A DNA stretch of 64,000 nucleotides, taken from Clostridia bacterium (lineage in GTDB: Bacteria > Bacillota > Clostridia > TANB77 > CAG-465). Below are positions 32,923-54,811 of the stretch, in pieces (positions within the stretch are counted from its first letter, which is position 1; every line of letters begins with the position of its first letter). Where the stretch lies: positions 68,883 to 132,882 of the forward strand of contig JAZKXT010000004.1 of NCBI GenBank assembly GCA_045611765.1, given 5' to 3'. The translations under genes and the position numbers were made by a program. The notes beneath the pieces were generated by a model. The model searched no databases, had not been told where the DNA came from, and saw only the letters and a program-made list of their open reading frames with translations.

Positions 32923-35900
32923 TTAGTCAAAATCTGTTGCAGCTCTTGAGTCTAAGTCATATAACATTACTGTTCCTTTTACTTCATTGTATACTGTATC
33001 TGATGTTATATTCCATACGCCGCCTTCAAGTCTTAATGAAACATCGTTATTCGATGTTACAGCTTTTCCATAATTCGAATAACCCATAAATCCTTCATAA
33101 TCCCATTGACTTGTGTTTGCCTTTCCAGCTTGAGTATCTTTAGAATAAGATAAGTCTATTCCATTTGAGCTAGCTATTATATCAAAGACCACTCCTATGT
33201 AACCATTTGTTAATGGTTTATTTATATCATAGTTGCCATTCTTATCTACTTTTACCGCAATTGTTGAGTTAGGTAGTTTATATTCTCCATAATATGTTAT
33301 TACAGAATCGTTTGCATTTGGAGTCGCCATTTTATACGTTAACTCTATCGTTCTTAAGTGACCTATATTTATAGATGATTTAGAAAAATGATCTGTTACT
33401 TCATCTTGTATATATCTATATCCATCATTTGGTGTAAAGTTTATATTATAACCTCCACCATCATTGTCTATTCTTACATACTTGCCATTGCTTGCTTTAT
33501 AGAATAAATATATTCCTTCACTCTTATTAGAACTATCATATTCTTTCAAATATGTTTTTCCGTCTTTTGAAATATAGTAAAATCTTGTGTTTATCGTTAC
33601 TTGCTTTTCATTATTTGCTGAATCACCTTTATAATATGATCCAGTAACGTTCATATCAAAACTAAATCTATATCCCATCTTAGGAGCATTTATGTATGTA
33701 TTATCCGTATTTTTATATGGTCCTATAGGAAGTGTTCTAAGAGGATTTCTTCCGATTTCAGTAAGTGTCCTTGGTACTATTTCATTAGTTTGAGTTGATT
33801 CCTTCTTCCATTTTGTAATACCAGAATAATATACTGTCCCATTATGAACGTTTACTTTACTAGACGTATTAGTTCTAAATACACTCTTCCAGTTTACATC
33901 TTTTACATCTGTCACTTTAAATCCATATATCCTATTTAATATTAATATTTTATTTTGGTTTTGTTCTGCAAAATAACTTGGATGTTCACAGATGTTCTCT
34001 ACATCTTCTTTCATCTCATTGGCAAGTTCTTCTATCGCTTTATATCGTGTTGATTCACTTAACATTAATGATGTTGAATTATATGCCGTTGCTCTTACAT
34101 GATATTGAACCTCTCCTTCAGAAAGCGGAGATACATCTAGCTCATCCACTGCCCCGTATGCCTGCGCTGTAACTTTACCTATGCCACTTGCATTTCGCTT
34201 CACTCTTATCCACGTTCCAGCTATTACTTTTCCACCACCATTATATACTCTATCATTTATAAATACCTTGTGTACATCAAAATCAAATTTGATATAATAT
34301 GGAGAACTATAAGATGATGTTGCTCCATAGTCAGTTGTATCATTTAATCCATAAACATTATTCTTTGTCACATCACCAAATGTTAGTGTTTTTGACATGT
34401 TGTTAATTGTTATTGTAAATGGAACATTTGATTGAACTAGCCCGTTTCCTTCATTTTTTGTAGATTGGTCAACTATATTATTTGAAGTAGTTTCGAATGC
34501 AGAATTTACCGTTATTGGTGTATATATATTTATAGGATCAACATATTCATATCTAGGATTATCCACAGTAGGCTCATTATTTATTTGATATTTCTGTATT
34601 AAATTAGTGTGAGTCCTATAAAAACTTGAATCCTTATACTCATCAGATATAGATGGATAATATACTGTATCTTTAATTCCCGTAATATCCGAATAACCAA
34701 TTCCCATTAAATCTTTTAAAGTATATTTTACTTCTCCTGCTAAAACTCTAACTCCATTTAATATATTATAGTGAATATGTCCTCTGGCCTCTACATAGTC
34801 TTGCTCACCTATTCCCGTCTCATAATATTCTTTAGGTATTTTAATAGGGGTTGTTTTTACTTCTATTTTTCCTTCAGGATTATCTATATCTGTTAATAAT
34901 TCTGCTATTTTATATGTTTTCTCAACTTTATTGTTAGGCTGAGCACTATTTAAAAGTATATCATCGACTTGAACATCCATGTTTTGTACTCTCAATTTAA
35001 ATGTTATATCATAGGTCGAAGCCACATCGGCATTGTTATCTGTTTCTGATTGACCATACATAAACATATACTCATCATAACGTACCTTGCCTGTTGGATA
35101 ATTCTCAATCATCCACTCCCATTCTTCATTCCACTCCGAATATTGTGTAAGCGCCTCCCCTACTTCTTCGTTAAGAACAATATACTTAGCAATATTCACA
35201 AGGAAAGAAAGTTCTTTATCTATCTCTTTTTCTATATTTCCCAATGCAGTATCTATGTTTTTCATTTGGGAATATATAGCTGTAATCTGGGCATTTCTCT
35301 TCGAAACATAGTCATCAGTAGTTCCTGCACAGTAGCCTTGCCATGCGTAAATTAAATTGTCGTCATCCCAACATTTAGCTCCTTCGTGGCTATTAGCTGC
35401 ATTAACTTCGTTTGTTAACTTAGTTTTATAATTTAATATTGAACCTTCTTTACTCCAACTGTATATAACTCTACTATAACCATTAAGCGCCACTGCAACA
35501 GACTCCAATGAAAATTCTATACTCTTTGTTACACCATCAGGTTTAATAACTAGTTTGCTACCAGTAGAGTTATAATACGTTTTTATTGGATTATCGTATC
35601 CACCTAATTTATCGGCGCCTTTCATAAATGAAATATAACTATTTGTCTTATTAACAAGATATTGAGCTGTATCACGCGCTTCCTTCCACGTTGTATATGA
35701 TGTTCCTATATTCAAACTGTCATAACACTGACCAACATAAATATTCAGTCCACCAGCAAACCATTTCTTCTCACATTTCAAATTTTTAAATGAGTCTGTA
35801 ATATTATCATTTAACAATTTTCTAGTGTCACTAACTGCATTTTTTAATTCTGTTAATTTTTCTTTTATCTCAGCTTCATTGGCTAGTGCTTCTTCCCAAG

Positions 35901-38900
35901 AAATTTTAGTACTAATTTCTATCTCATCTTTTAGGTCTTCAAGTTCTTGTTTTTTTGCATCCCATAAATCCTTTGCCTTTTTACGTTCTAATCTAACGTA
36001 TTCTACATCATCTTTATTTATTACGCCATTACTATTAGCGTCTAACTTTTTAGCATCATATTCATAATTAATTGTATGGAATGATGAGTCTGCCCAATTA
36101 TATGACGAGATTTTAACAGAATAGCTATTATCTGCCTTATCCGGATCCGGATTTGCTCCATTCCAACTCCCCTCATTAACATATTTAGCGCTATATGTTC
36201 TGTCTGTATAATTGCTTTCAATATCTATAGTATTTTTAGTGATTTCTCTTCCTTCCAATCCTGTCATTAACAATGTAGGGGTCTTGAAAACCGTCAATGT
36301 TTTTTTATTTTTTTCCCAGTTATATAAACTACTACCAACTGTAACTGCATCTATTGCTCCAGCATCATATAACGTTGCTTTATTAATGCTATATGCAGAT
36401 ATTTCTGTTACTTTATCATAACCAATTACTGTTGGATGATTAAAAGAAAATTGTATATCTTCAGACACAGGCTCGCCGCCAGCAATTGGACGTGTTCCTG
36501 ATACTAATATATCGTATACTATAGGGGTTTCATTTGTTGTGTATTGTGTTGTAACCGCTCCTAAGATAGCACGTGGTAACTTACTAGTTCCCGATTTTAC
36601 TATTGATACTGTACTATCATGACCAGACGGCATCGAGTATGTAGAATAAGATGATTCTCCTTTATACGTATCATCATAACAAGTCGTATTCGGAGTAGTA
36701 GAATCTGATACATCTACTGTCACCTTACCACCAATTACAGGAGTAGGTTCTGTTTTAATCGTCTCATCCTTATAATAATAGAACCAAACTTCTCTAACAG
36801 ATGCGTAATCCTCATTCAACTTAACCTCTACACCATTAGTAGAATCTTTTTCGTTATTCGCAATTCTTGTAATGTCTGACCTTGATGTATATGCATCACT
36901 CCACCTTCCATCTGTCCCCTCAGACAAATCATAGCCTTTATATACTATTCCATTTTTTATTTCTACAGGCTTAACAACCAAGTGTTCATTTGTCTTCATA
37001 CTTATTGGATATACTTCTTTTGTAAATTGATCGTTATTCATTCTCTCTATATCAACTCTATACGTTGGAGTAATAATGTCCCACCAAGCAGATGGTCTTA
37101 TTTCTATTTGAGCTTTAGAATTAGGAACTATGCCTGTTTTATCCGATTCAGGTACTAAAGTAAAGTCTGTTACATCATCATCACCGTTATCCTTAATATA
37201 ACGGTGATATACTGTTACCTCACCAGCATAATCTGAATAATACAAGTCTATCATGTATACTTTATTCTCAGACATTAACATTTCCGAATCGTCTTCATAT
37301 TCGGCATCCCATAAACTTAATTCGGTTACTTCATCTGGGCCCCAATCTTCTGGTGACCATTTTTCATATTTTCCTTTACGTATTCTAAATTCAAGTTGCT
37401 TTAATGCAGTATCATAATCTAACGCTGCTACAATATTAAATCCTATTAAATTTGTTTCAGGATATTTAACATCTTTAATGCTTAATGGGAAATCATAATA
37501 TTTTACACCAGAATATATTTCTGTAAAAGTTCTTCCATTTTCTGTAACTGTACCTGTAGTGTCATTATCTGGTACTGAGTTTAATACATTTCTATCATAA
37601 TCTAAAATTTCACCTAATTTATCTTGCAATGTACCCGTTACTGTGTCACTACATCTATCTGTACAACCTTGCGTTTTGGCTTCATCTAACGCACCTAAAA
37701 TACCACCTACACACGTATTAATGCAACTATTTCTATCCCAACTCCAATCATTGTTGATAGCCATTACGCTATCATTATTAACTAACTCTGTAGATATAAC
37801 ATTGTTAGTTCCAAGGTCAATATGTCTTACATATATTTTAGCATCAGATAGTTGTGGGAATAACAATTCGTTATCATATAAGTTAGCAACAGAGCCTAAC
37901 GCTAGAGAATATTCTTGTGGTTCAGTTCCATACAAGCTAACACTCCAGAATTTATTAGTAGCTGTTACTTTATTTTTGTCATCAAAAAACTCTCTTACTG
38001 TTCTAGATGCTATATATTTATTATCATAATTTTTAGATATTAACACCTGCGATATCATACAACCGTCTTCTTGTTCAGCAACAACCGCTGCATCAACAAA
38101 ATCCCCAACTATATTAGATGGTAGCACGTGATCGTCTACTATTACATTTCCTATTGTTGTTCCGTTATAATTATCATCTAGGTGTATCATGGCGCTTCTA
38201 AATATTGTTTGTTGAGATTCTTTTTTGTTTACTTTAAATGTTCTTTTTTCTTCATTATCTATATATCCACCAATTCTAGATACTGTATAAAATACATTAT
38301 CTGGTTTATCTTGAAAGCGTGCAAAATCATATTTGCTTGTATAAGATGGATATGAATGGAATAAGTTAACTGTTAACGACCCCAGCTCATCTTCAGGATC
38401 ATAATCTGCCCAATCATATACCTCGTCGTTATTTACGTCATATTGCTTCAATGACGAACTTTCACCAACATCGGTATAGTTAAGAGTATTAAATCCAATA
38501 GCCCCAACCCCAACCTTGTCAGCTGAATCTTCAATTTTTGCATATTCACTTAAATAATAATCTTTATGAAATATATATTGTGCTGTTACAAAAGTATTTA
38601 CAGCGGGCAATGGTACTGATGTACTTTCAACAACCCACTTAGAATCATACATTTTTCCGCCATACTCATATTGATAATAGTCACCATTTTTATCTAATTC
38701 ACGAACTAGCATATATCCTGACTTCTTATGATATTTTTTTACCGTTCCTGAATATGGAGTTGTAAATGTTCTAAATATCAATTCGTATGCGTCATCACCA
38801 TCGATATCTGTTTTCCATAAGTGATTAATTAAACCAACTCCAAGCACTTGATTAATATTAAAGAAGATTACACATAAAAACATTATGCTACATATAGTTA

Positions 38901-38916
38901 TTATTTTAGTTTTCAT
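32923..38916 (-). CDS. giant secreted/surface protein (1997 aa), last gene of the Tad-like operon
   Basis: N-terminal signal/anchor (MKTKIITICSIMFLCVIFFNINQVLG). Central coiled-coil about residues 1010-1090. One dockerin/EF-hand-like Ca loop (DANSNGVINKDD). Thr/Tyr/Asn/Gly-rich beta-type composition. No LPXTG. Confidence 0.6.
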   Translation of the reverse strand: MKTKIITICSIMFLCVIFFNINQVLGVGLINHLWKTDIDGDDAYELIFRTFTTPYSGTVKKYHKKSGYMLVRELDKNGDYYQYEYGGKMYDSKWVVESTSVPLPAVNTFVTAQYIFHKDYYLSEYAKIEDSADKVGVGAIGFNTLNYTDVGESSSLKQYDVNNDEVYDWADYDPEDELGSLTVNLFHSYPSYTSKYDFARFQDKPDNVFYTVSRIGGYIDNEEKRTFKVNKKESQQTIFRSAMIHLDDNYNGTTIGNVIVDDHVLPSNIVGDFVDAAVVAEQEDGCMISQVLISKNYDNKYIASRTVREFFDDKNKVTATNKFWSVSLYGTEPQEYSLALGSVANLYDNELLFPQLSDAKIYVRHIDLGTNNVISTELVNNDSVMAINNDWSWDRNSCINTCVGGILGALDEAKTQGCTDRCSDTVTGTLQDKLGEILDYDRNVLNSVPDNDTTGTVTENGRTFTEIYSGVKYYDFPLSIKDVKYPETNLIGFNIVAALDYDTALKQLEFRIRKGKYEKWSPEDWGPDEVTELSLWDAEYEDDSEMLMSENKVYMIDLYYSDYAGEVTVYHRYIKDNGDDDVTDFTLVPESDKTGIVPNSKAQIEIRPSAWWDIITPTYRVDIERMNNDQFTKEVYPISMKTNEHLVVKPVEIKNGIVYKGYDLSEGTDGRWSDAYTSRSDITRIANNEKDSTNGVEVKLNEDYASVREVWFYYYKDETIKTEPTPVIGGKVTVDVSDSTTPNTTCYDDTYKGESSYSTYSMPSGHDSTVSIVKSGTSKLPRAILGAVTTQYTTNETPIVYDILVSGTRPIAGGEPVSEDIQFSFNHPTVIGYDKVTEISAYSINKATLYDAGAIDAVTVGSSLYNWEKNKKTLTVFKTPTLLMTGLEGREITKNTIDIESNYTDRTYSAKYVNEGSWNGANPDPDKADNSYSVKISSYNWADSSFHTINYEYDAKKLDANSNGVINKDDVEYVRLERKKAKDLWDAKKQELEDLKDEIEISTKISWEEALANEAEIKEKLTELKNAVSDTRKLLNDNITDSFKNLKCEKKWFAGGLNIYVGQCYDSLNIGTSYTTWKEARDTAQYLVNKTNSYISFMKGADKLGGYDNPIKTYYNSTGSKLVIKPDGVTKSIEFSLESVAVALNGYSRVIYSWSKEGSILNYKTKLTNEVNAANSHEGAKCWDDDNLIYAWQGYCAGTTDDYVSKRNAQITAIYSQMKNIDTALGNIEKEIDKELSFLVNIAKYIVLNEEVGEALTQYSEWNEEWEWMIENYPTGKVRYDEYMFMYGQSETDNNADVASTYDITFKLRVQNMDVQVDDILLNSAQPNNKVEKTYKIAELLTDIDNPEGKIEVKTTPIKIPKEYYETGIGEQDYVEARGHIHYNILNGVRVLAGEVKYTLKDLMGIGYSDITGIKDTVYYPSISDEYKDSSFYRTHTNLIQKYQINNEPTVDNPRYEYVDPINIYTPITVNSAFETTSNNIVDQSTKNEGNGLVQSNVPFTITINNMSKTLTFGDVTKNNVYGLNDTTDYGATSSYSSPYYIKFDFDVHKVFINDRVYNGGGKVIAGTWIRVKRNASGIGKVTAQAYGAVDELDVSPLSEGEVQYHVRATAYNSTSLMLSESTRYKAIEELANEMKEDVENICEHPSYFAEQNQNKILILNRIYGFKVTDVKDVNWKSVFRTNTSSKVNVHNGTVYYSGITKWKKESTQTNEIVPRTLTEIGRNPLRTLPIGPYKNTDNTYINAPKMGYRFSFDMNVTGSYYKGDSANNEKQVTINTRFYYISKDGKTYLKEYDSSNKSEGIYLFYKASNGKYVRIDNDGGGYNINFTPNDGYRYIQDEVTDHFSKSSINIGHLRTIELTYKMATPNANDSVITYYGEYKLPNSTIAVKVDKNGNYDINKPLTNGYIGVVFDIIASSNGIDLSYSKDTQAGKANTSQWDYEGFMGYSNYGKAVTSNNDVSLRLEGGVWNITSDTVYNEVKGTVMLYDLDSRAATDFD

Positions 38917-38925: not shown

Positions 38926-40278
38926 CTATTCTATAACCACTTGTTCAGTTGGTTTTACTATATGCCTAGCTAGGCAAGCTTTAGATATTAATAATGAATT
39001 TGAATTAAATGTCATACCTGTTGGTAAGTCTACATACATCGTAATTTCATTTCCATTATATTTTACTTTTCTTGATTCATCACCGAACAACAAATTATAT
39101 TCAGTATCTGAATTAATAACTTTAAATGTTATTTTTGTTCTAATAATATATTGTTCACCATTACTATACATTATTGGAAGTAACGGCGTTGCCTCACCTT
39201 GTAATGTTATTTTATTATCTTTTACATATTGTACATATTTTTTTACATCATTTGTGTTCATTTTATATGTCATAAGACTTCCTATGCTATATAAAAACTT
39301 TTCATTTGTAATTGTTTTATAATCTACATTTAATATACTTCTAAAATAGTTTACTACCATATCATCAATTTGGCCATATAAATAACCCATTAGTTTATAT
39401 GTATGCTTTGGGGTTTTAAATGAAGGTTCCCATTTCACTTCGTAATCTAACTCATAAATTTCTTTAGGTATGCTCGAAATTATATATGGGTATTCTTTAT
39501 AGTTTTCTGGCATTTGTTTTTTATCTGTAACAATTTCTACTTTTTCGTCGCTATTACCTTTGTTTTTATAATACATCAACGCATTTTCTTCTATTATTTC
39601 AATTAATAGTTTGTTTAATTCACCTTTAACTATTTTAGAATTAGATAATGCTGAATTTTTATTTTGTATAATTCCTAATGTTACTGCTTTTGCTATCGCT
39701 ATTTGCTCAGCTTCTGTATATTGTTTTAACCTTTTCTCACTCATCTTTAATTCTGATGGTTTTACTTCACCCAAAACACCTTCTAAAACATTTGTTGTAA
39801 TCACAACTGCATCTATATATGTTGCTCTCACATCTAGCTCTTTTTCTGTTATACTGTCATTTATACCCGCATATAATGAATAATTGTACCAATTTTGGCT
39901 ATCTGGTTTGCTTTTGTCCGTTAGGTAATATATATTTGAAATATCCTTTATATTGTTTATAGTTCCAACCGTAACTTTGATTAGCTCCGCATTAGAAACT
40001 TTTTGGATGGATGTGGCTTTTTCATTGTTATATAACTTTGCAAAACCATATGTTTCCATTTTATCTGTATATTCCCAATATTTAACGGTTATTATTAATG
40101 CTTTAATTCCAAAATATATTCCAATAGATACTACTATCATTATACCAATTAATACTTTTGTAAATACAGACAGTCTATTAGGCTTTTTATCAGCAGTGTT
40201 TTTAGACTCACTTGTTGCGACCTTCTTAGATGATGTTTTTTTCTTATTCTTTTTCAATTCATTGTTGCTTTTTTCCAT
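38926..40278 (-). CDS. membrane-anchored extracellular protein (450 aa), Lys-rich cytoplasmic N-terminus + single TM
   Basis: KKNKKKTSSKK... followed by a TM helix (VLIGIMIVVSIGIYFGIKALII). Confidence 0.5.
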   Translation of the reverse strand: MEKSNNELKKNKKKTSSKKVATSESKNTADKKPNRLSVFTKVLIGIMIVVSIGIYFGIKALIITVKYWEYTDKMETYGFAKLYNNEKATSIQKVSNAELIKVTVGTINNIKDISNIYYLTDKSKPDSQNWYNYSLYAGINDSITEKELDVRATYIDAVVITTNVLEGVLGEVKPSELKMSEKRLKQYTEAEQIAIAKAVTLGIIQNKNSALSNSKIVKGELNKLLIEIIEENALMYYKNKGNSDEKVEIVTDKKQMPENYKEYPYIISSIPKEIYELDYEVKWEPSFKTPKHTYKLMGYLYGQIDDMVVNYFRSILNVDYKTITNEKFLYSIGSLMTYKMNTNDVKKYVQYVKDNKITLQGEATPLLPIMYSNGEQYIIRTKITFKVINSDTEYNLLFGDESRKVKYNGNEITMYVDLPTGMTFNSNSLLISKACLARHIVKPTEQVVIE

Positions 40279-47972: not shown

Positions 47973-50069
47973 TTACATGTTCAATACTGACATTTGTGAT
48001 ACGAGTTGCATTATGCTCACAAGTAGTAATGGACCAACAAAGTATGCCGCTACCAATATTATTAAAGGAGTAAATCCAATTGCATTTCCCATAGTAGATT
48101 TTTTGTTTATTATTCTTTCGTTTGTTTCTTTCCTTTTTTCATATTGGAAACTTCTCTCTGTTTCTAGTTCATCAAAGGCTTCTCTTATTGGTATTCTTTC
48201 TACCGCCGAAATTAACGCTTCTACTATACGCTGGAAGTCTTTTTGTGGAACTGAATCCTTTAAGTCCTCTAAAGCTTCAATTGCACCTGCTTCATAGTTG
48301 TTTAAAGCTGTAGAAATCGGCTCTTTATATGCGTATGAATATCTTTCAAGCCATTCTAATACCGTTTGTACATCAACTCTTTCAATATACATAAGCATTA
48401 GTATTATTGACCTAAACTGCATTATTTCGTCTTCTCTTTCCAAAGCCCTTATTTTATTTTTAATAATTAAAACAATATTTGGTATGAAATATACTCCCCA
48501 TGCAACGAGCAGCGCTATTATCATTTCCCAAAATTTCATGAAATTATCTTTGACGCCTTCTATTTTCCCAAGAACTCTTTCAACATCACTATCCAAAACC
48601 TTTTGTTCCTCTTCAGCTCCCGATGCGCCCATTTGTTTTTCTAGTTCATATCTTACATCTTCTTCTGTAACATTTTTTTCGTTCTTTAGCTTGTCTACAA
48701 TTTCCTTGTCGCTTTTATTTAACGCTTCTGCCGCTTGTCTGTCTTCGTCAGATAGGGCTCCAAGGCTTAAGAATTCTTCGCTAATTTCATTATATATACT
48801 ATTTAAATCTATCGCATGTATATTTATTAACAAAACAAACATGGCTACAAAAGCTATAATCGCATACGTAAACTTATTAATGTAGAACCACTGCAGAGTT
48901 AAATATGAGTTTGTCGACTTAATTCTTTCAGTAAGTCTTTTATGTTTCCTCGTATGCTCGCTTGGCATGAAACCTCTTATTACAAATTTAACAAGTGGAA
49001 ATTTGTAAAGCTTATCTTGCCATTTTTCAGTTACAATTCTATCGAATTTTATTTCGTTAGAATCTTCTCTTATTAGTTTTAAGGCAAAGTATGCTACAAA
49101 TATTGATACCATTATTAGTGTACGGATTACAAATCCAATACTGCTTGAATAGAAATTTATAAGTGCTGGGAAGTTTGTTGATGCCCAGTTTTCTACAATT
49201 TGTAGGAAGAATATTGGTGCTATAGCTATTGCTGTCAAACTTCTAAATTTATAATTTATTTTGTCTTTTTTTAGTAGCTCCAAATATACATCGTTTAGTA
49301 TATTGTTTAAGTTTTTTAAGTATACTGACACTCCCTCTACTTTTCTATCTCCAAGTTCCATTGTAAGATAGGATACACCAGCAAAAAGTTTTAAAAATTT
49401 ATTTGGTGCCGTATCATAATATTTCTCAAGCATTACGTCAGGATTATCTGATGTTATAGCATCTCTAATTCTTCTTATTTGAGGCATTATTTCTTTGTCC
49501 TCAAGCTCTTCTATAGCATCATTAAATGCTTCTTCTATCATACCATGCTCATGGAATGAGTGTCTTATTTCTGTAAAAACTTCCGGTAATTGTGTCATTA
49601 TCTTATCTGCTACTTTATTAACCCTAGAGTTAACCATAACATCATTTATTATGAACACCATAAGTATTACAACAATTGCCGTATATAAATCCGAAACTAC
49701 ATTTAAGAAGACAAACAGCGCTGCAAATATAAATAATAAAGATAGTAACATTATCGAGCCTGTTTTTCTTCTTATTTCATACTCGGTATAATCATTTACC
49801 ATTTCTAGTTTAAGTCTTGTCTTTCTAGTATAGTATTTTATAACTGGTAGTTTTACCAATATTAAATATGCTACTTGAAATACTCTATCCAAAATATCCT
49901 TAATACTTGTTTTATTCTTTACAACTATTTGATCTTTTTGAAATAGCTTTGAATTACTTGCATATTTTTTCTTTGTTACATTATAGTATATTATAACAGC
50001 AAGTAAGCCTAAAAAGGCAATTCCAACCATGCCAATTATAATATACAGAGTTCCATTACCCGCTGCCAT
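47973..50069 (-). CDS. GspF/TadB/TadC-family inner-membrane platform protein, apparently two fused T2SSF-like modules (698 aa)
   Basis: Two repeats of a TM helix, cytoplasmic helical domain, then TM helices. Adjacent to the secretion ATPase. Confidence 0.5.
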   Translation of the reverse strand: MAAGNGTLYIIIGMVGIAFLGLLAVIIYYNVTKKKYASNSKLFQKDQIVVKNKTSIKDILDRVFQVAYLILVKLPVIKYYTRKTRLKLEMVNDYTEYEIRRKTGSIMLLSLLFIFAALFVFLNVVSDLYTAIVVILMVFIINDVMVNSRVNKVADKIMTQLPEVFTEIRHSFHEHGMIEEAFNDAIEELEDKEIMPQIRRIRDAITSDNPDVMLEKYYDTAPNKFLKLFAGVSYLTMELGDRKVEGVSVYLKNLNNILNDVYLELLKKDKINYKFRSLTAIAIAPIFFLQIVENWASTNFPALINFYSSSIGFVIRTLIMVSIFVAYFALKLIREDSNEIKFDRIVTEKWQDKLYKFPLVKFVIRGFMPSEHTRKHKRLTERIKSTNSYLTLQWFYINKFTYAIIAFVAMFVLLINIHAIDLNSIYNEISEEFLSLGALSDEDRQAAEALNKSDKEIVDKLKNEKNVTEEDVRYELEKQMGASGAEEEQKVLDSDVERVLGKIEGVKDNFMKFWEMIIALLVAWGVYFIPNIVLIIKNKIRALEREDEIMQFRSIILMLMYIERVDVQTVLEWLERYSYAYKEPISTALNNYEAGAIEALEDLKDSVPQKDFQRIVEALISAVERIPIREAFDELETERSFQYEKRKETNERIINKKSTMGNAIGFTPLIILVAAYFVGPLLLVSIMQLVSQMSVLNM

Positions 50070-50078: not shown

Positions 50079-51971
50079 TCACCCCCATGCTGTGTCTAAG
50101 AATTTATCAAATGCTTTGATATCTTCATCAGACATGTTTTCACGCATAGCTTGTACATTTGCTTCTGACAGTTGATGTACAAATATATATTCGCCATCTT
50201 TAAATTCTACTATGTTGTGATAATCATAGTTCGAAGTTTGAGTCATATGCCTAAAGTATTCAGTAGCGTTATCCATGAATGCTTCCCATTTGCCTTCCAT
50301 ATTTTTAGCTCTTTTGTATCCATCGTGATAGTTAAACTCTTTCTCTTTTGGAACACACTCTGTTATTCTCTCTATATATCTTGTTCCGTCAACACCTCTT
50401 TTTAGGTGAACGTCAAAGTTTATAACGTTAACAACCTGTACTTCTGCAACATCTTCATTGTTAAACATACCTATTTTTAAAAGTGAGTTTCTTAGTGCAG
50501 TTATAAGGTTAGGGAATGTTTTAGCGTGGTGCGTAAATAATGTGAATTTAGAAGCAACCTGCGCCATTTGTATCATCCATGCAGCAACCGGGTCAGTTGC
50601 AACCTCTCCTAGGATATTAACACCACCATCTGTTTTCTTTTGAACATCTAGACCCATTTGTCCAGTGATTGTGTCTGTCTCTCTTAAAGACAAGATATTG
50701 TTTCTAGGATATATTTTTCTTAAGTGAAGTTCGAATGCTGTTTCCTGAACACGCATCGTTATTGTTGGGTAAAGGTATTTCATTATAGCCATAAGAAGTG
50801 TTGTTTTACCACAACCTTGTTCACCCGTTATTGCTGTAACACGAGCACCTCTAATTAAGTATTTAAGTAACTCTATTACTGGTTCTTTGTTTTTATGTAC
50901 TAATAATTGTTCTGTGTCTATCAAAGTTGGTGGAGCAAACTTTCTTACGAAGAACGCCCACGACTCTGCAAAGTTAGGTCTTAATACAACTATTCTGGAA
51001 CCATCTTTCATTTCGTTGATTTTGAAACCAACTGATTCAGATAATTGTCCTGGATTATTGTATTTGTATATGTTTTGACATACACGTCTAAGCTCTGCTT
51101 CGCTGCCGAATGATAAGAAAGATAAATACATTGATTTACCTTTATAGAAAATCCATACTGAGTCGTATGACATTGGTATATTGAATTTTCCTGTTTGATC
51201 TAGGTAATCCTCCATGTCACCAACTTGGTCTAAGAAGCTAGGTGGTATACCTGAAACTCCTCCTGAAACACCGTCTATATTTTGGTCACGTATATCATCT
51301 ATTACGCTAAATCCTTTATATCCTTGATAAATTCTTTGAACAACTATTTCTAATTTGTCTTCAAAATCTATTGGTGTTCCTTCAACTTCTTCTTCATAAA
51401 TATGATTTATTTCTTCAGCAGTTATTACATATGATGGAACTTTTGCGTCATATTCGAATTTTGGTTCGTCTAGTCTGTATTTGCTTATCATATGGTTTAA
51501 TGCATTAGATTTATATTTTTTCTTATACAAATGAAGTAATATGTCGAATTGGTCTTGCGCTGTCATTTTTTCTTTGCTATCGAAAGGTATTGCGAAATTT
51601 AGGTTTCTATCTGTTACCTTATATTGGTTTTTTAGTAAGTCAAACATTAATGATTTAACATACTTCTTGTCGTTAGCAGATGCATAACCCGCACCTTTTA
51701 AAGCTTTTTTCAAATCGTACTTTGTATTCTTTCTTCTTTCGAATTCATCTTCAGAAAGAGCAAGATCGTATAAGTTCATTCTAGTTATTTCGTCGAATTC
51801 GTGTTTTATAAAATCAGACATTCCTTTTATGCTGTATTTTTGTCTTTCACGTTCAACTTCATCCTCAATTCTTGTGTCTTTTTTAGAGGTTGCTGCATAA
51901 TATATACCTGCAACAACTAGAGCGAACATAACTATTATTAATATTGTGTTAAATATAAATGAAAGTGACAA
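50079..51971 (-). CDS. VirB11/CpaF(TadA)-family secretion ATPase with an N-terminal TM helix and about 250-aa N-terminal extension (630 aa)
   Basis: Walker A GEQGCGKTT in the expected position for the CpaF/VirB11 P-loop; N-terminal MSLSFIFNTILIIVMFALVVAGIYYA. Confidence 0.6.
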   Translation of the reverse strand: MSLSFIFNTILIIVMFALVVAGIYYAATSKKDTRIEDEVERERQKYSIKGMSDFIKHEFDEITRMNLYDLALSEDEFERRKNTKYDLKKALKGAGYASANDKKYVKSLMFDLLKNQYKVTDRNLNFAIPFDSKEKMTAQDQFDILLHLYKKKYKSNALNHMISKYRLDEPKFEYDAKVPSYVITAEEINHIYEEEVEGTPIDFEDKLEIVVQRIYQGYKGFSVIDDIRDQNIDGVSGGVSGIPPSFLDQVGDMEDYLDQTGKFNIPMSYDSVWIFYKGKSMYLSFLSFGSEAELRRVCQNIYKYNNPGQLSESVGFKINEMKDGSRIVVLRPNFAESWAFFVRKFAPPTLIDTEQLLVHKNKEPVIELLKYLIRGARVTAITGEQGCGKTTLLMAIMKYLYPTITMRVQETAFELHLRKIYPRNNILSLRETDTITGQMGLDVQKKTDGGVNILGEVATDPVAAWMIQMAQVASKFTLFTHHAKTFPNLITALRNSLLKIGMFNNEDVAEVQVVNVINFDVHLKRGVDGTRYIERITECVPKEKEFNYHDGYKRAKNMEGKWEAFMDNATEYFRHMTQTSNYDYHNIVEFKDGEYIFVHQLSEANVQAMRENMSDEDIKAFDKFLDTAWG

Positions 51972-52004: not shown

Positions 52005-52811
52005 CTATATTCTTACGCGGTCTAAAACCGCTTTTGTTATATTTCTTATTTCATGAATAAAATATCCATTATAGTCATTTTTTTCAGCATTTAAGTTTTT
52101 ATAAAAGAAATCAATTACATTTCCATCATTACATGCATCTGTAAACACGTAGTTATGTGGTATGCAATGTATTGGCTCTTTTATTCCATACTTTCTGCGA
52201 ATATTTGGGATATTATATTTAGATTTTTCCTCATAATTACACATTAAAAGCATTTTAGGTTTATTCTTTATAATCTCATTTGAAAGATATTTATCCATTG
52301 CTTCCTCTAAAAAGACTTCTTCTTGATTCATAGTACAAATTACATAGTCTGCCTTTTCCAACTCATCTGTTATATATGATTTTTCAGTACCCTTAGGTAA
52401 ATCTAACCAAACCAAATCATATGTTTCATTTGCTTTATTTACAACCATTCCTAAACTGTTGGTAAGTTGGCTAAATTGTTCTCTACTTGCAACATTTGTA
52501 CCATACATTACATCAAGTCTTTGTTTTAAAACTGGTTTTGCATAGTTTCTTATACTTTCAGGAGTAAGTTTATTACTCTCAACAAGTCTTGCTAAAGCTG
52601 TAATACCAATACTTGAACTATTGAACACATTCTGTGCTTTTAAAGAACTGTAATCTGTAAATGAGCTTTCAATTTTTTTAGCTTGCCAATGTGCGTGTAG
52701 AAGTATATTAGAATAATCTTCTTCAATCGCCATCAAAGTACTAACAGCTACACTTGCATGCGTTTGTCCTATAGAAGTAGCTACCGGGCTCCAAAATACT
52801 ATCTTTGGCAT
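52005..52811 (-). CDS. MinD/ParA-fold protein with degenerate P-loop (TadZ/CpaE-like pseudo-ATPase?)
   Basis: KIVFWSPVATSIGQTHASVAVSTLMA aligns to the deviant Walker A xKGGxGKT[T/S], but with GQT replacing GKT. Confidence 0.4.
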   Translation of the reverse strand: MPKIVFWSPVATSIGQTHASVAVSTLMAIEEDYSNILLHAHWQAKKIESSFTDYSSLKAQNVFNSSSIGITALARLVESNKLTPESIRNYAKPVLKQRLDVMYGTNVASREQFSQLTNSLGMVVNKANETYDLVWLDLPKGTEKSYITDELEKADYVICTMNQEEVFLEEAMDKYLSNEIIKNKPKMLLMCNYEEKSKYNIPNIRRKYGIKEPIHCIPHNYVFTDACNDGNVIDFFYKNLNAEKNDYNGYFIHEIRNITKAVLDRVRI

Positions 52812-53536
52812 TACAATTTCCCCCTTGTATACATTTTTATCATTTTTCTAATTTCCCCCGCTTGTACATCACCTAATATTTCTGACGCCATGTCTGTTAT
52901 AAGCGAAATATATTGTTTTGTGTGTCTGTTCATGTCTATATAACCACTTTGCTCAAATTCTATATCAGCAATTTTATCTTGATCTGTATATGCAAATTCA
53001 TATTCTGTCTCATTCCAATCAACAGGAAGACTTAGTATTTTACTTTCAAAATATTTTTCACTAGCTCTTGTTACATATTGTCTAAATAATACACGCGTAA
53101 GAACCGGCTTCCTTTCTACCGCTTCATATTTTAACATAGTGTTTAATAGTTCTTCATTCTTAGCTATAGATATGTTTAGATATTCTATAAAGAAGAATGT
53201 TTTTGCAAAATTCTCTTGTATAAAGTCCTCATATGATTGTACATTGTCTATGTCTATTAATATAATATCATATGTGTCTGCGTTTGATGTTTTTGTACAT
53301 ATGTATTCTTTTATTGCTTCTATACTTCTAAATCCTAGAGCATAATCCACAGAATCAAAATGTACTAAATATTCTTCTTCCGAATTATTGAAGGCTGGTA
53401 TAGAATATCTTAGACGTTCTTCCGATGTTGCATCAATAACTAAAACAGATTTCCCAGTTATAGTTAATACTTTAGCCAAATTAATTATATATTCGGTTTT
53501 ATTTACATATCCTACCAAACCTATTATCTTTTGCAT
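52811..53536 (-). CDS. MinD/ParA-fold (TadZ/CpaE-like) protein with deviant Walker A VGYVNKTEY
   Basis: IIGLVGYVNKTEYIINLAKVLTITGKSVLVID resembles the MinD N-terminus. Overlaps the downstream paralog by 1 nt. Confidence 0.4.
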   Translation of the reverse strand: MQKIIGLVGYVNKTEYIINLAKVLTITGKSVLVIDATSEERLRYSIPAFNNSEEEYLVHFDSVDYALGFRSIEAIKEYICTKTSNADTYDIILIDIDNVQSYEDFIQENFAKTFFFIEYLNISIAKNEELLNTMLKYEAVERKPVLTRVLFRQYVTRASEKYFESKILSLPVDWNETEYEFAYTDQDKIADIEFEQSGYIDMNRHTKQYISLITDMASEILGDVQAGEIRKMIKMYTRGKL

Positions 53537-53550
53537 TTGTTCCTCCTATT

Positions 53551-54660
53551 TTAATAATCTAAAGCCTCTCCTCTTAAAGCTTGTTGATTGCTAATTGAAT
53601 CTGTAATTCCAGAAACAACGTTATCATAAGCCTCTTCATTGCTTTGTTCAAATGAAGCTATGCTGCTTTCAATATTACGTCTTGCTTCTGCATTAAGTTT
53701 ACCTTTCGCTTGCTCTACTATATATTGATTTTGTCTCATAAATGCCATTACTTGAGAGTTTGGTTGGTAATTAGCTTTCGTTTTGTTATATGATTCAACA
53801 AAGTATCTATATTCAATAGCATATTGTGTTACTATGTCTAATAAACTTTGTCTAGCAGTAGATACTCCCACAGTTTCTTTTTGGCCATTTGCATCAACAT
53901 TTCCAGTTTCTCTGTTTTCTACCATATAAATGTCATCCATGTCATCAAATTTTGCAAGTTCTTTACCAATTTCATCTCTTAAATATAATTGTGCTTGTCT
54001 CACCGCTTCATCTGTAGTATTTAATTTTATTTGCGTTGTAGGGTCAGTATATTTTACCGCATACAATTTTGTTCCCTCTGTTAAATACGAATCTACTATA
54101 GCACTGTTTAACATTAATGTATCTTCTTCTGACATGTCCATCCAAATTGATGTTCCAGATATTTTCGATACTTGTTTTTGTGTAAGTACAATATAGTCAG
54201 CTCCATTTGGATACATTATTCTTATATCTATAAAATCATTTACAACAAGATCTGTAGGTAATAGCACCGCGTTAATTTCTTGTATTCTCATATCTTGAGA
54301 TACTATCTTATCTCCAACCATACTAGAAACAGCAACCGAATTCCTCACTATGTTATATTTTGCCACTTGACCTACAACAGCTCCCGTTGATAAATACGCA
54401 TTATTTGGAACTGTGTTTTTGTGTATAGTTGTTGTAGTAAGCATATCTGCTGTTATAGTTTCTCCTTGAACAACATCTCTAGTAAAGGTTACTACGTCAG
54501 CTGTATATTTTTCCAAGAAGCTTTTACTTGTTCCTTCTTTATATCCTTTTACAATGTTATTAGATATTAGTATTGTAACAAGAACAAATACCAATCCTAT
54601 TCCAAGTCCTATTAAAATTCCATTAATCAATCTCTTCTTTATTTGATTCATTCCTATCAT
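53551..54660 (-). CDS. CpaB/RcpC-like pilus assembly protein (membrane anchor + SAF-type beta domain), first gene of the operon
   Basis: Start at ATG 54660 (GGAGG RBS 9 nt upstream). TM LINGILIGLGIGLVFVLVTILI, then a periplasmic-type domain. Confidence 0.45.
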   Translation of the reverse strand: MIGMNQIKKRLINGILIGLGIGLVFVLVTILISNNIVKGYKEGTSKSFLEKYTADVVTFTRDVVQGETITADMLTTTTIHKNTVPNNAYLSTGAVVGQVAKYNIVRNSVAVSSMVGDKIVSQDMRIQEINAVLLPTDLVVNDFIDIRIMYPNGADYIVLTQKQVSKISGTSIWMDMSEEDTLMLNSAIVDSYLTEGTKLYAVKYTDPTTQIKLNTTDEAVRQAQLYLRDEIGKELAKFDDMDDIYMVENRETGNVDANGQKETVGVSTARQSLLDIVTQYAIEYRYFVESYNKTKANYQPNSQVMAFMRQNQYIVEQAKGKLNAEARRNIESSIASFEQSNEEAYDNVVSGITDSISNQQALRGEALDY

Positions 54661-54688
54661 ATGTATAAACCTCCATAATACTGTCAAA

Positions 54689-54717
54689 ATAATATAACAA
54701 AATGCCTACATAGTCAA
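54689..54717 (-). promoter_or_regulatory. sigma-A-type promoter TTGACT-17-TATTAT for the Tad-like operon, with upstream palindromes TGAGGCCTCA (54732-54741) and TTTACAAAAATGTAAA (54744-54759)
   Basis: Seen directly on the minus strand; about 22-nt leader to the RBS. Confidence 0.45.
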
Positions 54718-54811
54718 CAAGTTTTAGGTATTTGAGGCCTCATTTACAAAAATGTAAAGAACACGTAACATTATTGTAATATTACATGCTCTTTACCGCT
54801 ATAATACGTCA

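What the first reader, a model, noticed from the sequence alone, without database searches (positions are those of the whole stretch)
32923..54760. 22-kb operon encoding a divergent Tad/type-IV-filament-like machinery plus a cascade of N-terminally anchored giant extracellular proteins
Fourteen co-directional, tightly spaced genes follow one promoter (gaps 0-35 nt, apart from two about 110-133-bp gaps flanking the candidate major subunit). The machinery part includes:
- a CpaB/SAF-like anchored protein;
- two MinD/ParA-fold paralogs with deviant or degenerate P-loops;
- a VirB11/CpaF-type ATPase that unusually carries its own TM helix and a 250-aa extension;
- a 698-aa platform protein that looks like a TadB-TadC fusion.
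After these come four small pilin-like proteins (87-149 aa), each with a short polar leader followed by a hydrophobic helix (AIMIG... type). They lack both the G/FTLIE type IVa signature and the Glu+5 of Flp pilins, and are closer to archaeal class-III-like N-termini.
Next come five progressively larger proteins (354, 405, 450, 1114 and 1997 aa) that reuse the same pilin-like N-terminal module in front of large beta-rich ectodomains. This gene complement (platform fusion, membrane-tethered ATPase, giant pseudopilin-adhesin fusions, no LPXTG, no prepilin peptidase in cis) does not match any canonical Tad, Com, type IVa or archaellum locus I know. It sits among sporulation genes, so it may build a surface or spore-associated fibre.
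Basis: partly seen in the sequence, partly recalled or inferred. Interest (0 to 1): 0.9.

Follow-up and report, generated by a model that had tools for sequence, protein, structure and literature searches.

The report
Tad-like pilus operon of TANB77
This 22-kb operon is real and encodes a very divergent Tad-type (type IV filament) pilus machine with its pilin-like subunits, but the same gene cluster was already described in 2024 as the "conserved pilus cluster" of the uncultured gut clade TANB77, so it is interesting biology rather than a new discovery.

Summary
The 14 co-directional genes (minus strand, 32923-54687) are real. They are syntenic in 80 genomes of uncultured gut Clostridia. The machinery reading holds. 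It comprises:
- a SAF/CpaB-like anchor;
- two small ParA-like proteins (one supported only weakly, the other only by the literature);
- a membrane-tethered CpaF-like ATPase;
- a 698-aa two-half platform whose model matches GspF cytoplasmic domains;
- a major pilin-like subunit with an invariant N-terminal helix, a variable head, and its own promoter and terminator;
- three small and three large proteins with pilin-like N-termini.

Two details are wrong. The 450-aa protein is a bitopic membrane protein, and the 1997-aa protein has an ordinary Sec signal peptide.

Kim et al. 2024 (Nat Commun 15:10726) already published this cluster, with the same component assignments, as the TANB77 pilus cluster. 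That evidence was in silico.

New here:
- a short acidic leader with a [K/R/E]-Ala site, and no Gly-1 or Glu+5;
- no A24 peptidase in the window, but one in cis in a distant homologous cluster;
- more than 1000 diverse platform relatives;
- whole-cluster homologues on plasmids of Clostridium botulinum, C. argentinense and Paenibacillus, and in two metagenome loci next to conjugation genes.

The promoter is sigma-A-like, so nothing supports a spore link.

The parts
54689..54717 (-). Sigma-70-like promoter TTGACT-17-TATTAT of the operon. It is preceded by a terminator-like hairpin (54754-54796) that closes the upstream dac gene.
   Evidence: The same promoter type (TTGACT/TTGATT ... TATTAT/TATACT) lies upstream of g1 in relatives. 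These are consensus matches only.
53551..54687 (-). g1: membrane-anchored SAF/CpaB-like protein (378-aa ORF; the likely start is ATG 54660, MIGMNQIKK...).
   Evidence: Pfam SAF 1.5e-7. NCBIfam CpaB 2.9e-7, below its cut-off. One TM at residues 23-41. 25-74% identity in 79 loci.
52811..53536 (-). g2: small ParA/MinD-like protein with a deviant P-loop (G..G...KT).
   Evidence: Sub-threshold Pfam AAA_31 2.8e-4 and CbiA 3.4e-3. The family profile hits MinD over 30 residues at E 1.6e-3. The orthologue was called TadZ-like by fold in PMC11680825.
52005..52811 (-). g3: second small cytoplasmic protein, ParA-like only by literature and topology. Its N-terminal motif FWSP....G.TH has no Walker lysine.
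   Evidence: No Pfam or PDB sequence hit and no detectable relation to g2. COG1192 and a CpaE-like fold are reported for the orthologue. It is conserved in the wider family at 23-30% identity.
50079..51971 (-). g4: CpaF/TadA-type secretion ATPase (630 aa) with an N-terminal TM helix (residues 5-23) and a conserved extension of about 250 aa.
   Evidence: Best PDB hit is CpaF, over residues 273-550, at E 1.3e-7; the archaeal GspE hit is only 7.5e-3. The Walker A motif GEQGCGKTT, the ILGE motif and the THHAKT box are invariant. 60-94% identity in 80 loci.
47973..50069 (-). g5: 698-aa polytopic platform protein with two T2SSF-like halves in one chain.
   Evidence: No Pfam or PDB sequence hit, even with a family profile. 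In the AF2 model (pLDDT 68), the best specific Foldseek hits are the EpsF/OutF cytoplasmic domains (probability 0.95-0.99, TMt 0.62-0.68). 7 hydrophobic segments. PMC11680825 reports TadC-like and TadB-like halves with 8 TMH.
47417..47863 (-). g6: candidate major pilin (148 aa), with its own promoter-like site (47892-47920), a strong RBS and a terminator-like hairpin (about 47365-47400).
   Evidence: The N-terminal 32 aa (MDNAQKAIMIGVGLFITIIIIS...) are invariant in 45 homologues, while the rest is 36-52% identical. AF2 pLDDT is 87.7, with helix 3-57 plus a beta head. Tandem paralogues occur in many relatives. Regulatory sites.
46852..47283 (-). g7: small pilin-like protein (likely start ATG 47259, MEEWSVR...).
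   Evidence: The family N-terminus is M-[DE]-[ED]-x3-R-A-[IL]-x-I-G-V.
45622..46839 (-). g8: 405-aa minor-pilin-like protein. It shares an N-terminal module with g11.
   Evidence: BLASTP of g8 against g11 gives E 9e-13 over about 230 aa. The module (FP.Y..ERQDD.SY...FVD.VR..GYI) is conserved in the wider family, including the Paenibacillus and Clostridium plasmids.
45148..45597 (-). g9: small pilin-like protein (149 aa).
   Evidence: The family N-terminus is M-x4-N-K-A-[IL]-x-I-[GA]-V-G-x-F.
44780..45146 (-). g10: small pilin-like protein, frameshifted in this window. The ORF is 87 aa (44883-45146), and the rest of the gene continues in another frame.
   Evidence: Orthologues are 139-154 aa, and the C-terminal part is readable in frame 2.
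41432..44776 (-). g11: 1114-aa modular minor-pilin-like protein. It combines a g8-type N-terminal module with Ig-like (Big_13, Big_3_2, OmpL47-type) domains.
   Evidence: Pfam Big_13 1.2e-13 and Big_3_2 5.7e-7; NCBIfam OmpL47-type domain 1e-14. N-terminal homology to g8.
40293..41357 (-). g12: 354-aa protein with the N-terminus MK(I/L)TDFALIF..LP and a conserved C-terminal motif YH..C ... G[FY]YPC..C.P.
   Evidence: There are sub-threshold Ada_Zn_binding hits in 7 of 32 members. It is conserved in the wider family.
38926..40278 (-). g13: bitopic membrane protein (450 aa) with a Lys-rich cytoplasmic tail, one TM (residues 36-54) and a large ectodomain. It is not pilin-like.
   Evidence: It always precedes a g14-like gene, and the pair is duplicated in L087.
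32923..38916 (-). g14: 1997-aa secreted protein with a Sec-type signal peptide. Its C-terminal domain of about 540 aa is conserved.
   Evidence: The C-terminal 540 aa are 34-37% identical in 7 metagenome loci, always downstream of g12-g13 homologues. An orthologue has the signal peptide ...NNVQA|N. No Pfam family.

Best explanation
The operon encodes a complete but very divergent Tad-like (type IV filament) nanomachine of a monoderm gut Clostridium, the same cluster that Kim et al. 2024 described for order TANB77.

Proposed mechanism:
1. The hexameric CpaF-like ATPase g4 is tethered to the membrane by its own TM helix. It drives the single-chain, two-half platform g5.
2. The platform extracts pilin-like subunits from the membrane and stacks them into a filament through their hydrophobic N-terminal helices.
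3. g6 is the major subunit. It is transcribed from its own promoter, stopped by its own terminator, and has an invariant helix with a fast-evolving head.
4. g7, g9 and g10 are minor subunits of the same N-terminal class.
5. g8, g11 and g12 are larger, modular minor-pilin or pseudopilin-like proteins that prime or cap the fibre. g11 carries Ig-like adhesin modules.
6. g1 (SAF/CpaB-like) forms the envelope-spanning collar.
7. g2 and g3 are TadZ/CpaE-like positioning or scaffold proteins with degenerate P-loops.
8. g13 (bitopic) and g14 (Sec-exported giant protein) form a conserved accessory pair, probably a surface or fibre-associated adhesin with its membrane partner.
9. The most likely role is adhesion or colonisation in the gut during vegetative growth.

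Shown here: homology of the ATPase, the SAF domain, the platform fold, the pilin-like architecture, conservation and synteny.

Inferred: filament formation, subunit roles, N-terminal processing and adhesion.
For: - Genes and synteny.
- ATPase: CpaF is the best solved relative, and the catalytic motifs are invariant.
- g1: SAF/CpaB signal.
- Platform: the model matches EpsF/OutF cytoplasmic domains.
- g6: the model is a 55-residue helix plus a beta head at pLDDT 87.7. The N-terminal 32 aa are invariant against a head that is 36-52% identical, and tandem paralogues exist. It has its own promoter-like site and terminator-like hairpin.
- Minor subunits: g7, g9 and g10 share the N-terminal motif.
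- g8 and g11: paralogous, with Ig-like domains in g11.
- Peptidase link: an A24 prepilin peptidase is the last gene of a distant homologous cluster (L093).
- Promoter: sigma-A-type, of a kind conserved in relatives.
- Independent in-silico agreement: PMC11680825 gives the same assignments.
Against: - No filament has ever been seen.
- The canonical prepilin site (Gly-1, Glu+5) is absent, and position -1 is not conserved across the wider family.
- No A24 peptidase occurs in the window or within 10 kb of the cluster in 80 related loci.
- The platform and g3 have no sequence-level link to T2SSF or ParA families.
- The two platform halves are not detectably related to each other.
- The platform model is only of moderate quality (pLDDT 68, pTM 0.34).
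Confidence: 0.75

Rival explanations
1. The machine is primarily a DNA-transfer or mating pilus, or a DNA-uptake pilus, rather than an adhesin fibre. It would be a domesticated descendant of a pilus module of Gram-positive conjugative elements, with g12's C-terminal Cys/His motif acting as a DNA- or metal-binding receptor.
For: - Distant whole-cluster homologues lie directly next to a TraG/VirD4 coupling protein plus an NlpC/P60 hydrolase (L088), and next to a VirB4-like AAA_10 ATPase plus a glucosaminidase (L096). Homology of those clusters is shown.
- The platform family occurs on 33 plasmids, including those of C. botulinum, C. argentinense and Paenibacillus.
- The best NCBIfam hit of g4 is 'TadA family conjugal transfer-associated ATPase' (3.6e-6).
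- g12 ends in an Ada_Zn_binding-like motif.
Against: - The window and 80 related loci contain no VirB4, VirD4, relaxase or hydrolase homologue.
- The cluster sits at a conserved chromosomal position next to dac in 69 of 80 loci.
- It is reported as single-copy in 95% of TANB77 species, which fits vertical inheritance of a core trait.
- The Ada-like hits are below threshold.
Confidence: 0.12
2. The small N-terminally hydrophobic proteins do not polymerise into a long fibre. The system would be a pseudopilus-type or membrane-embedded export or assembly device that places g11 and g14 (and their relatives) on the cell surface.
For: - The pilin-like proteins have no fold match to solved pilins.
- There is no canonical cleavage motif and no peptidase in cis in TANB77.
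- A giant Sec-dependent protein and its bitopic partner are conserved at the end of the cluster.
Against: - A monoderm needs no second-membrane secretion step.
- g6 has the hallmarks of an abundant major subunit: its own promoter and terminator, an invariant helix, a hypervariable exposed head and gene duplications.
Confidence: 0.1
3. A spore-associated appendage expressed during sporulation.
For: - Neighbouring genes include a DD-carboxypeptidase and YtvI.
- SpoIIE and SpoVAC/AD/AE also lie in the window.
- The dac neighbour is conserved in 69 of 80 loci.
Against: - A terminator-like hairpin separates dac from the operon.
- The operon and its relatives carry sigma-A-type -35/-10 boxes, not sigma-E, -F, -G or -K-like ones.
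- ytvI has its own perfect sigma-70 consensus.
- Homologous clusters on plasmids sit in unrelated contexts.
Confidence: 0.03

Closest known systems
Conserved pilus gene cluster of the uncultured gut order TANB77 (Kim et al., Nat Commun 2024;15:10726; PMC11680825)
   Same: - Gene order and sizes agree. The paper lists 358 aa CpaB-like (1 TMH), 231 aa TadZ-like, 280 aa CpaE-like, 640 aa TadA/CpaF with 1 TMH and 693 aa with 8 TMH (TadC-like plus TadB-like halves), followed by single-TMH pilin-like proteins. The window has 378, 241, 268, 630 and 698 aa followed by pilin-like genes.
- Hosts are uncultured gut Clostridia MAGs.
   Different: - The published representative (CAG-245) has 12 genes ending with a 621-aa protein. 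The window has 14 genes, including a 1114-aa Ig-domain protein and the g13-g14 pair.
- The paper did not analyse N-terminal motifs, the peptidase question, the major-subunit regulatory signals or relatives outside TANB77. It calls the cluster exclusive to TANB77 at a 50% similarity cut-off.
Tad/Flp (type IVc) pili, e.g. Caulobacter Cpa, Aggregatibacter Tad, Bifidobacterium breve Tad
   Same: - A CpaF/TadA-type ATPase is the closest solved relative.
- A CpaB/RcpC-like SAF protein is present.
- ParA-like TadZ/CpaE-type proteins precede the ATPase.
- The order is ATPase, then platform, then pilins.
- No retraction ATPase paralogue is present.
   Different: - The platform is one fused chain that scores with no T2SSF model.
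- The ATPase has a TM anchor and a 250-aa extension.
- The ParA-like proteins are short (about 240-270 aa) and degenerate.
- The major subunit is 148 aa with a globular head, not a 50-80-aa Flp with G/XXXXEY.
- There is no TadE Pfam signal and no TadV in cis.
Archaeal type IV pili and Epd-like pili (ancestors of Tad according to Denise et al. 2019, PMC6668835)
   Same: - Short leaders end in [K/R]-[G/A] before the hydrophobic stretch, with no Glu+5 requirement.
- Pilins have a globular domain.
- The platform has two T2SSF-like halves in one protein, as in most archaeal T4P.
   Different: - The ATPase profile scores far better with bacterial CpaF than with the archaeal GspE homologue (1.3e-7 against 7.5e-3).
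- A SAF/CpaB protein is present.
- No KaiC/FlaH-like protein is present.
- The hosts are Bacillota.
Unannotated homologous clusters on Firmicutes plasmids (C. argentinense pRSJ17_1, C. botulinum p12/29, P. polymyxa M1 pPPM1a)
   Same: The core order is the same: SAF protein, two small proteins, an ATPase of about 620 aa, a platform of about 670-690 aa, small pilin-like proteins, a g8-like protein and a g12-like protein.
   Different: - They are plasmid-borne and followed by a GGDEF protein and cell-wall hydrolases or CWB-repeat proteins.
- Platform matches to the query used (P0470, a distant family member) are 22-30% identical. For metagenome members of the wider family, the ATPase is 36-50% and the platform 25-29% identical to the window's proteins.
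- In RefSeq they are annotated only as 'ATPase, T2SS/T4P/T4SS family' or 'CpaF' plus hypothetical proteins.
- None has been studied experimentally, as far as the library searches show.

Membership tests
TANB77 conserved pilus gene cluster (Kim et al. 2024) | Gene order CpaB-like, two COG1192-like proteins, ATPase of about 640 aa, platform of about 690 aa, then 5-7 single-TMH pilin-like genes | tested here: met
   Sizes are 378/241/268/630/698 aa followed by pilin-like genes. The same order holds in 80 loci.
TANB77 conserved pilus gene cluster (Kim et al. 2024) | Topology: 1 TMH in the CpaB-like protein and the ATPase, about 8 TMH in the platform, 1 N-terminal TMH in the pilin-like proteins | tested here: met
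   A Kyte-Doolittle scan gives g1 one segment, g4 one segment (5-23), g5 seven segments, and g8/g11/g12 one N-terminal segment each.
TANB77 conserved pilus gene cluster (Kim et al. 2024) | Host genome belongs to GTDB order TANB77 | not testable with these tools
   No GTDB classification is available here. All 80 best loci are uncultured gut 'Clostridia bacterium' MAGs, plus Clostridium sp. CAG:465 and CAG:1219. That these CAG genera belong to TANB77 rests on my own recollection and is not verified.
Tad/Flp (type IVc) pilus system | TadA/CpaF-family ATPase | tested here: met
   CpaF is the best PDB relative (E 1.3e-7 with the family profile). NCBIfam TadA-family gives 3.6e-6. Pfam T2SSE is only 0.016, below the gathering score.
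Tad/Flp (type IVc) pilus system | Two separate platform proteins, TadB and TadC, each with one T2SSF domain | tested here: not met
   There is a single 698-aa protein. It has no T2SSF hit in Pfam or NCBIfam, nor against PDB sequences with a family profile. Only fold-level similarity to EpsF/OutF cytoplasmic domains is seen.
Tad/Flp (type IVc) pilus system | Flp-type major pilin (50-80 aa, G/XXXXEY processing motif) | tested here: not met
   g6 is 148 aa with a folded head. Its N-terminus MDNAQKAIMIGVG has no Gly-1 and no Glu/Tyr at +5/+6.
Tad/Flp (type IVc) pilus system | TadZ/CpaE ParA-like protein | tested here: inconclusive
   g2 has sub-threshold AAA_31, CbiA and MinD signals. g3 has none. 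Fold-level TadZ/CpaE similarity is reported for the orthologues in PMC11680825.
Tad/Flp (type IVc) pilus system | TadV/CpaA prepilin peptidase (A24) | tested here: inconclusive
   It is absent from the 64-kb window and from within 10 kb of the cluster in 80 relatives. It is present in cis in one distant homologous cluster (L093). The rest of the genome could not be searched.
Tad/Flp (type IVc) pilus system | CpaB/RcpC SAF-domain protein | tested here: met
   Pfam SAF 1.5e-7, above its cut-off. TIGR03177 CpaB 2.9e-7, below its cut-off.
Type IV filament superfamily (generic) | Pilins with a long hydrophobic N-terminal alpha-helix followed by a globular domain | tested here: met
Archaeal type IV pili / class III signal peptides | Leader ending in [KR][GA] directly before the hydrophobic stretch | tested here: inconclusive
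   g6, g7, g9 and g10 families have [K/R/E]-A at that position in most TANB77 members. The position varies (A, G, L, T, F, V) in the wider family. Cleavage is untested.
Gram-positive conjugative type IV secretion system | VirB4-like ATPase, VirD4 coupling protein, relaxase and cell-wall hydrolase in the locus | tested here: not met
   None is found in the window by Pfam, nor by tblastn with the L088 and L096 proteins in any TANB77-type locus.
Sortase-dependent pili | C-terminal LPXTG sorting signal and a sortase gene | tested here: not met
   No C-terminal LPXTG-like motif occurs in any of the 14 proteins, and no sortase family hit occurs in the window.

The most novel reading that the evidence does not exclude
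The TANB77 operon may be one branch of a large, unclassified subfamily of type IV filament systems of Bacillota. Its features would be a single-chain two-half platform invisible to T2SSF models, a membrane-tethered CpaF-like ATPase, and pilins with a 6-8-residue acidic leader lacking Gly-1 and Glu+5. The ancestral home of the subfamily would be conjugative plasmids and ICEs, including Clostridium botulinum, C. argentinense and Paenibacillus plasmids. In that case it would be a candidate for a pilus associated with DNA transfer in Gram-positive bacteria, later domesticated as a core colonisation organelle in TANB77. Its subunits may be processed non-canonically or not at all.
Probability: 0.25. 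Interest if true: 0.75.

Novelty: already known. Interest (0 to 1): 0.42.

Why it matters
TANB77 is an uncultured gut order whose abundance predicts response to checkpoint-blockade therapy. One protein of this very cluster was reported to activate dendritic cells through TLR4 (PMC11680825). Several things would therefore help efforts to use or detect this structure:
- knowing which gene is the abundant major subunit;
- knowing how the subunits are processed;
- knowing which proteins are exposed;
- knowing that cultured bacteria (Paenibacillus polymyxa M1, Clostridium botulinum, C. argentinense) carry homologous clusters on plasmids.

For pilus biology, the family shows how far a Tad-type motor can diverge: a fused platform, an anchored ATPase and non-Flp pilins. 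The family is missed by standard domain models, so current censuses of type IV filaments in Firmicutes probably undercount it.

Tried and rejected
- A sequence-level link of the platform to T2SSF failed. Single-sequence and 21-sequence-profile searches against PDB sequences found nothing, and Pfam and NCBIfam found nothing.
- hhalign detected neither an internal duplication of the platform nor paralogy of g2 and g3.
- An exact look-up of the window's own proteins to name the source genome failed. P0241 is 100% identical to g6 and lies on a 272-kb NCBI contig, but no gene record was retrievable.
- Literature searches linking CAG-465 or CAG-1219 to TANB77 found nothing, and the paper's supplements are not held.
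- tblastn with the L093 A24 peptidase against plasmids was uninformative.
- The weak match of g14 residues 980-1097 to cytochrome b562/BRIL (E 6e-5) is most likely a four-helix-bundle or compositional resemblance and was not pursued.
- An ABC-transporter reading of g4 was rejected. The ABC_tran hits cover only the P-loop (about 30 residues), whereas CpaF aligns over 270 residues.

Full report
**Observation.**
- The minus strand between 32923 and 54687 carries 14 consecutive ORFs of 378, 241, 268, 630, 698, 148, 143, 405, 149, 87, 1114, 354, 450 and 1997 aa.
- Intergenic gaps are -1 to 33 nt except for four: 109, 133, 106 and 74 nt.
- The 106-nt gap is not intergenic. The 87-aa gene is frameshifted in this window, its orthologues are 139-154 aa, and the missing C-terminus is readable in another frame.
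- A terminator-like hairpin (54796-54754) closes the upstream DD-carboxypeptidase gene. A sigma-70-like promoter (TTGACT-17-TATTAT, 54717-54689) and a GGAGG ribosome-binding site follow it, in front of ATG 54660.
- The 148-aa gene has its own promoter-like site (47920-47892), a strong AAGGAGG site and a terminator-like hairpin.

**Reality of the genes.**
- tblastn of the 14 proteins against 80 loci fetched with the ATPase shows the order dac-g1-...-g13 conserved in uncultured gut Clostridia MAGs from humans, ruminants, rabbits and chickens.
- The ATPase is 60-94% identical, the platform 34-80%, and the other proteins 22-88%.
- The flanks stop before g14. A separate metagenome scan found the C-terminal 540 aa or so of g14 (34-37% identity) in 7 loci, each time downstream of g12 and g13 homologues. 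In L087 the g13-g14 pair is duplicated.

**Machinery.**
- *g1.* It has a TM helix and a SAF domain (Pfam 1.5e-7) with a sub-threshold CpaB signal.
- *g4.* It aligns over 270 residues with Caulobacter CpaF. The E-value is 2.6e-7 for the single sequence and 1.3e-7 for the family profile. The next hit, an archaeal GspE homologue, is only 7.5e-3. Walker A, Walker B and the His box are invariant. The N-terminal TM helix and the 250-aa extension are conserved in all relatives.
- *g5.* It has no hit in Pfam or NCBIfam, nor against PDB sequences, even as a 21-sequence profile. Its AlphaFold2 model is moderate (pLDDT 68). The best specific Foldseek hits are the cytoplasmic domains of the type II secretion platform proteins EpsF and OutF (probability 0.95-0.99, target TM 0.62-0.68).
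- *g2.* It gives only sub-threshold ParA/MinD signals.
- *g3.* It gives none, and g2 and g3 are not detectably related.

**Pilin-like proteins.**
- *g6 sequence.* The first 32 residues (MDNAQKAIMIGVGLFITIIIIS...NLGTG) are invariant in 45 homologues, whereas the rest is 36-52% identical. Many relatives carry two or three tandem copies.
- *Small subunits.* The g7, g9 and g10 families share the motif M-[D/E]-x(3-5)-[K/R/E]-A-[I/L]-x-I-[G/A]-V-[G/S]-x-F. Gly-1 and Glu+5 are absent. The [K/R]-A site fits the archaeal class III pattern.
- *Larger proteins.* g8 and g11 are paralogues over their first 230 aa or so (E 9e-13). g11 adds Ig-like Big_13, Big_3_2 and OmpL47-type domains. g12 starts MK(I/L)TDFALIF..LP.
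- *Not pilin-like.* g13 has a 35-aa Lys-rich cytoplasmic tail before its TM helix. g14 has a Sec-type signal peptide.

**Prior description.** A literature search found Kim et al., Nat Commun 2024;15:10726 (PMC11680825).
- The paper reports a 10-14-gene cluster present in 122 of 129 species of the uncultured gut order TANB77.
- It annotates the proteins as CpaB (358 aa, 1 TMH), TadZ (231 aa), CpaE (280 aa), TadA/CpaF (640 aa, 1 TMH) and a 693-aa, 8-TMH protein whose halves resemble TadC and TadB. Single-TMH pilin-like proteins follow.
- The evidence for a pilus is in silico (eggNOG, InterPro, DeepTMHMM, AlphaFold2 and Foldseek).
- One recombinant protein ('938', 621 aa) activated dendritic cells via TLR4.
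- The window's operon matches this description gene for gene.
- No later mechanistic study was found. I could not verify the GTDB placement of the window's genome.

**Beyond the paper.**
- *Family size.* A profile of the platform finds 1059 representative clusters (at 50% identity) at E <= 1e-3 and 567 at E <= 1e-30. Most of the 150 best listed are 600-790 aa, roughly full length.
- *Whole-cluster homology.* Distant members sampled from this family keep the cluster. g1, g3, g4 (36-50% identity), g5 (25-29%), a g8/g11-like gene and a g12-like gene are all detectable.
- *Peptidase.* One such cluster (L093) ends with a 172-aa Peptidase_A24 gene carrying the two aspartate motifs. This links the family to prepilin processing.
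- *Conjugation neighbours.* Two clusters lie directly beside conjugation hallmarks. L088 follows a TraG/VirD4 coupling protein and an NlpC/P60 hydrolase. L096 follows a VirB4-like AAA_10 ATPase and a glucosaminidase.
- *Plasmids.* The platform also occurs on 33 PLSDB plasmids: Paenibacillus 11, Clostridium 9, Lysinibacillus 6, Butyrivibrio 2 and others.
  - In C. argentinense pRSJ17_1, C. botulinum p12/29 and P. polymyxa M1 pPPM1a the same core order is visible. It is annotated only as an 'ATPase, T2SS/T4P/T4SS family' or 'CpaF' gene (plus a SAF-domain protein in pPPM1a) among hypothetical proteins, and is followed by a GGDEF protein.
  - The pilin-like N-termini persist there, for example MNNASSALKVAAGLFLTIAL. 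The residue before the hydrophobic stretch is not conserved.
- *TANB77-type loci.* None of them, nor the window, contains an A24 or conjugation gene homologue.

**Interpretation.**
- The best-supported reading is a Tad-derived type IV filament machine that builds a surface fibre from g6, with g7, g9 and g10 as minor subunits. g8, g11 and g12 would be modular priming or tip proteins, and g13-g14 an accessory surface pair.
- Adhesion or colonisation is the likeliest role. This rests on the Ig-like modules, the fast-evolving and duplicated major-subunit head, and analogy with Tad pili of gut bifidobacteria (established knowledge).
- Strict membership in Tad fails on two defining features: separate TadB/TadC proteins with T2SSF domains, and a Flp pilin. 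The system therefore works like a Tad pilus but is a distinct variant.
- The spore-fibre idea has no support. The operon's promoter is sigma-A-like, relatives carry -35/-10 boxes of the same kind, and neighbouring genes have their own signals.
- A DNA-transfer role is a minority rival for the TANB77 copy, but a real lead for the plasmid- and ICE-borne relatives.

**Verdict.** The finding is a real and well-read locus, and its core interpretation is correct. It is already in the literature, so novelty is low. The residual interest lies in four points:
- the unexplored assembly mechanism, including the processing question;
- the wider family;
- the family's association with mobile elements;
- the availability of cultured carriers for experiments.

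Noticed in passing
window 44780-45146 (minus strand): The 87-aa pilin-like gene (g10) is truncated by a frameshift. Orthologues are 139-154 aa, and the missing C-terminus can be read in another frame. This explains the apparent 106-nt gap before the 1114-aa gene. It may be a real pseudogene or an assembly error.
   Followed up: partly
window 40293-40420 (C-terminus of the 354-aa protein g12); alignment A8: A conserved C-terminal motif, YH-x3-4-C ... AA..G[FY]YPC-x2-C-x-P, lies at the very end of the protein. It resembles the Ada zinc-binding domain: 7 of 32 members hit PF02805 below threshold, with a best E of 0.0013, and one weak 'sunset domain' hit was seen. The motif is kept in several distant family members and lost in others. 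It could bind metal or DNA.
   Followed up: partly
window 35626-35979 (residues about 980-1097 of the 1997-aa protein g14): A helical segment matches soluble cytochrome b562/BRIL sequences at E 6e-5 to 1e-3. It is probably a four-helix bundle inserted in the giant protein. Heme ligands were not checked.
   Followed up: no
L087 2275-13296; L081-L086: The bitopic protein (g13-like) and the giant secreted protein (g14-like, about 1260-1340 aa elsewhere) travel as a pair after the g12 homologue. The pair is tandemly duplicated in L087, and L081-L083 carry two g13 copies. Only the C-terminal 540 aa or so of g14 are conserved.
   Followed up: partly
L093 14342-14860 and 1-1943: A distant homologous cluster ends with a 172-aa Peptidase_A24 gene. 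Upstream in the same locus are a DUF5702 protein, a canonical TadE-like protein (MKKSG|NITVEAAIAVP), a second A24-like 150-aa ORF (motifs AYEDVQ and GSGD) and FHA/PP2C/Ser-Thr-kinase genes. This suggests a second, canonical Tad locus next to it.
   Followed up: partly
L088 1-5237 and 14575-22010; L096 1-3823: Distant homologous clusters lie next to conjugation-type genes: TraG/VirD4 with an NlpC_P60 hydrolase in L088, and an AAA_10 VirB4-like ATPase with a glucosaminidase in L096. In L088 the cluster is followed by four proteins with signal-peptide-like N-termini that contain '...SDTDSVTNNFHFGKIDIE'. From memory this looks like TasA/camelysin-type SipW substrates (not tested). A >2300-aa SpaA/SdrD_B adhesin follows.
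   Followed up: partly
L098 (C. argentinense pRSJ17_1), L099 (P. polymyxa M1 pPPM1a), L100 (C. botulinum p12/29): Plasmid-borne homologous clusters in cultured Firmicutes are each followed by a GGDEF-domain protein. In p12/29 a signal peptidase I gene follows as well. RefSeq annotates most of the proteins as hypothetical. No GGDEF gene was seen next to the TANB77-type cluster in the window.
   Followed up: no
L019, L022, L024, L026, L028, L029, L031, L036, L041, L052, L064 (about 13.6-15.7 kb in locus coordinates): There are two or three tandem copies of the major pilin-like gene. Their N-terminal 25-30 residues are identical and their heads divergent, reminiscent of multi-copy pilin or flagellin loci under diversifying selection.
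   Followed up: partly
window 522-31438 and 56614-63986: The genomic context is ordinary chromosome of a spore-former:
- AgrB, CarD, a RadA-like protein and CorA;
- SpoIIE (9838-12228);
- SpoVAC/AD/AE (23333-25216);
- two adjacent AMP-binding acyl-CoA ligases (27990-31438);
- YtvI;
- two ABC-F proteins;
- a radical SAM/SPASM protein;
- TruA;
- a XerC/D-like recombinase.

Three ORFs (12404-13009, 14492-15796 and 63444-63986) have no Pfam family.
   Followed up: partly
g13 orthologues in L017-L065 (N-termini): Many g13 orthologues share a cytoplasmic N-terminal motif, (F/I)(V/I/K)P(S/A)Y, ahead of a Lys/Arg-rich stretch and the TM helix. The window's copy lacks it. It could be a docking peptide for a cytoplasmic component, as in PilN-PilM. 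This is untested.
   Followed up: no
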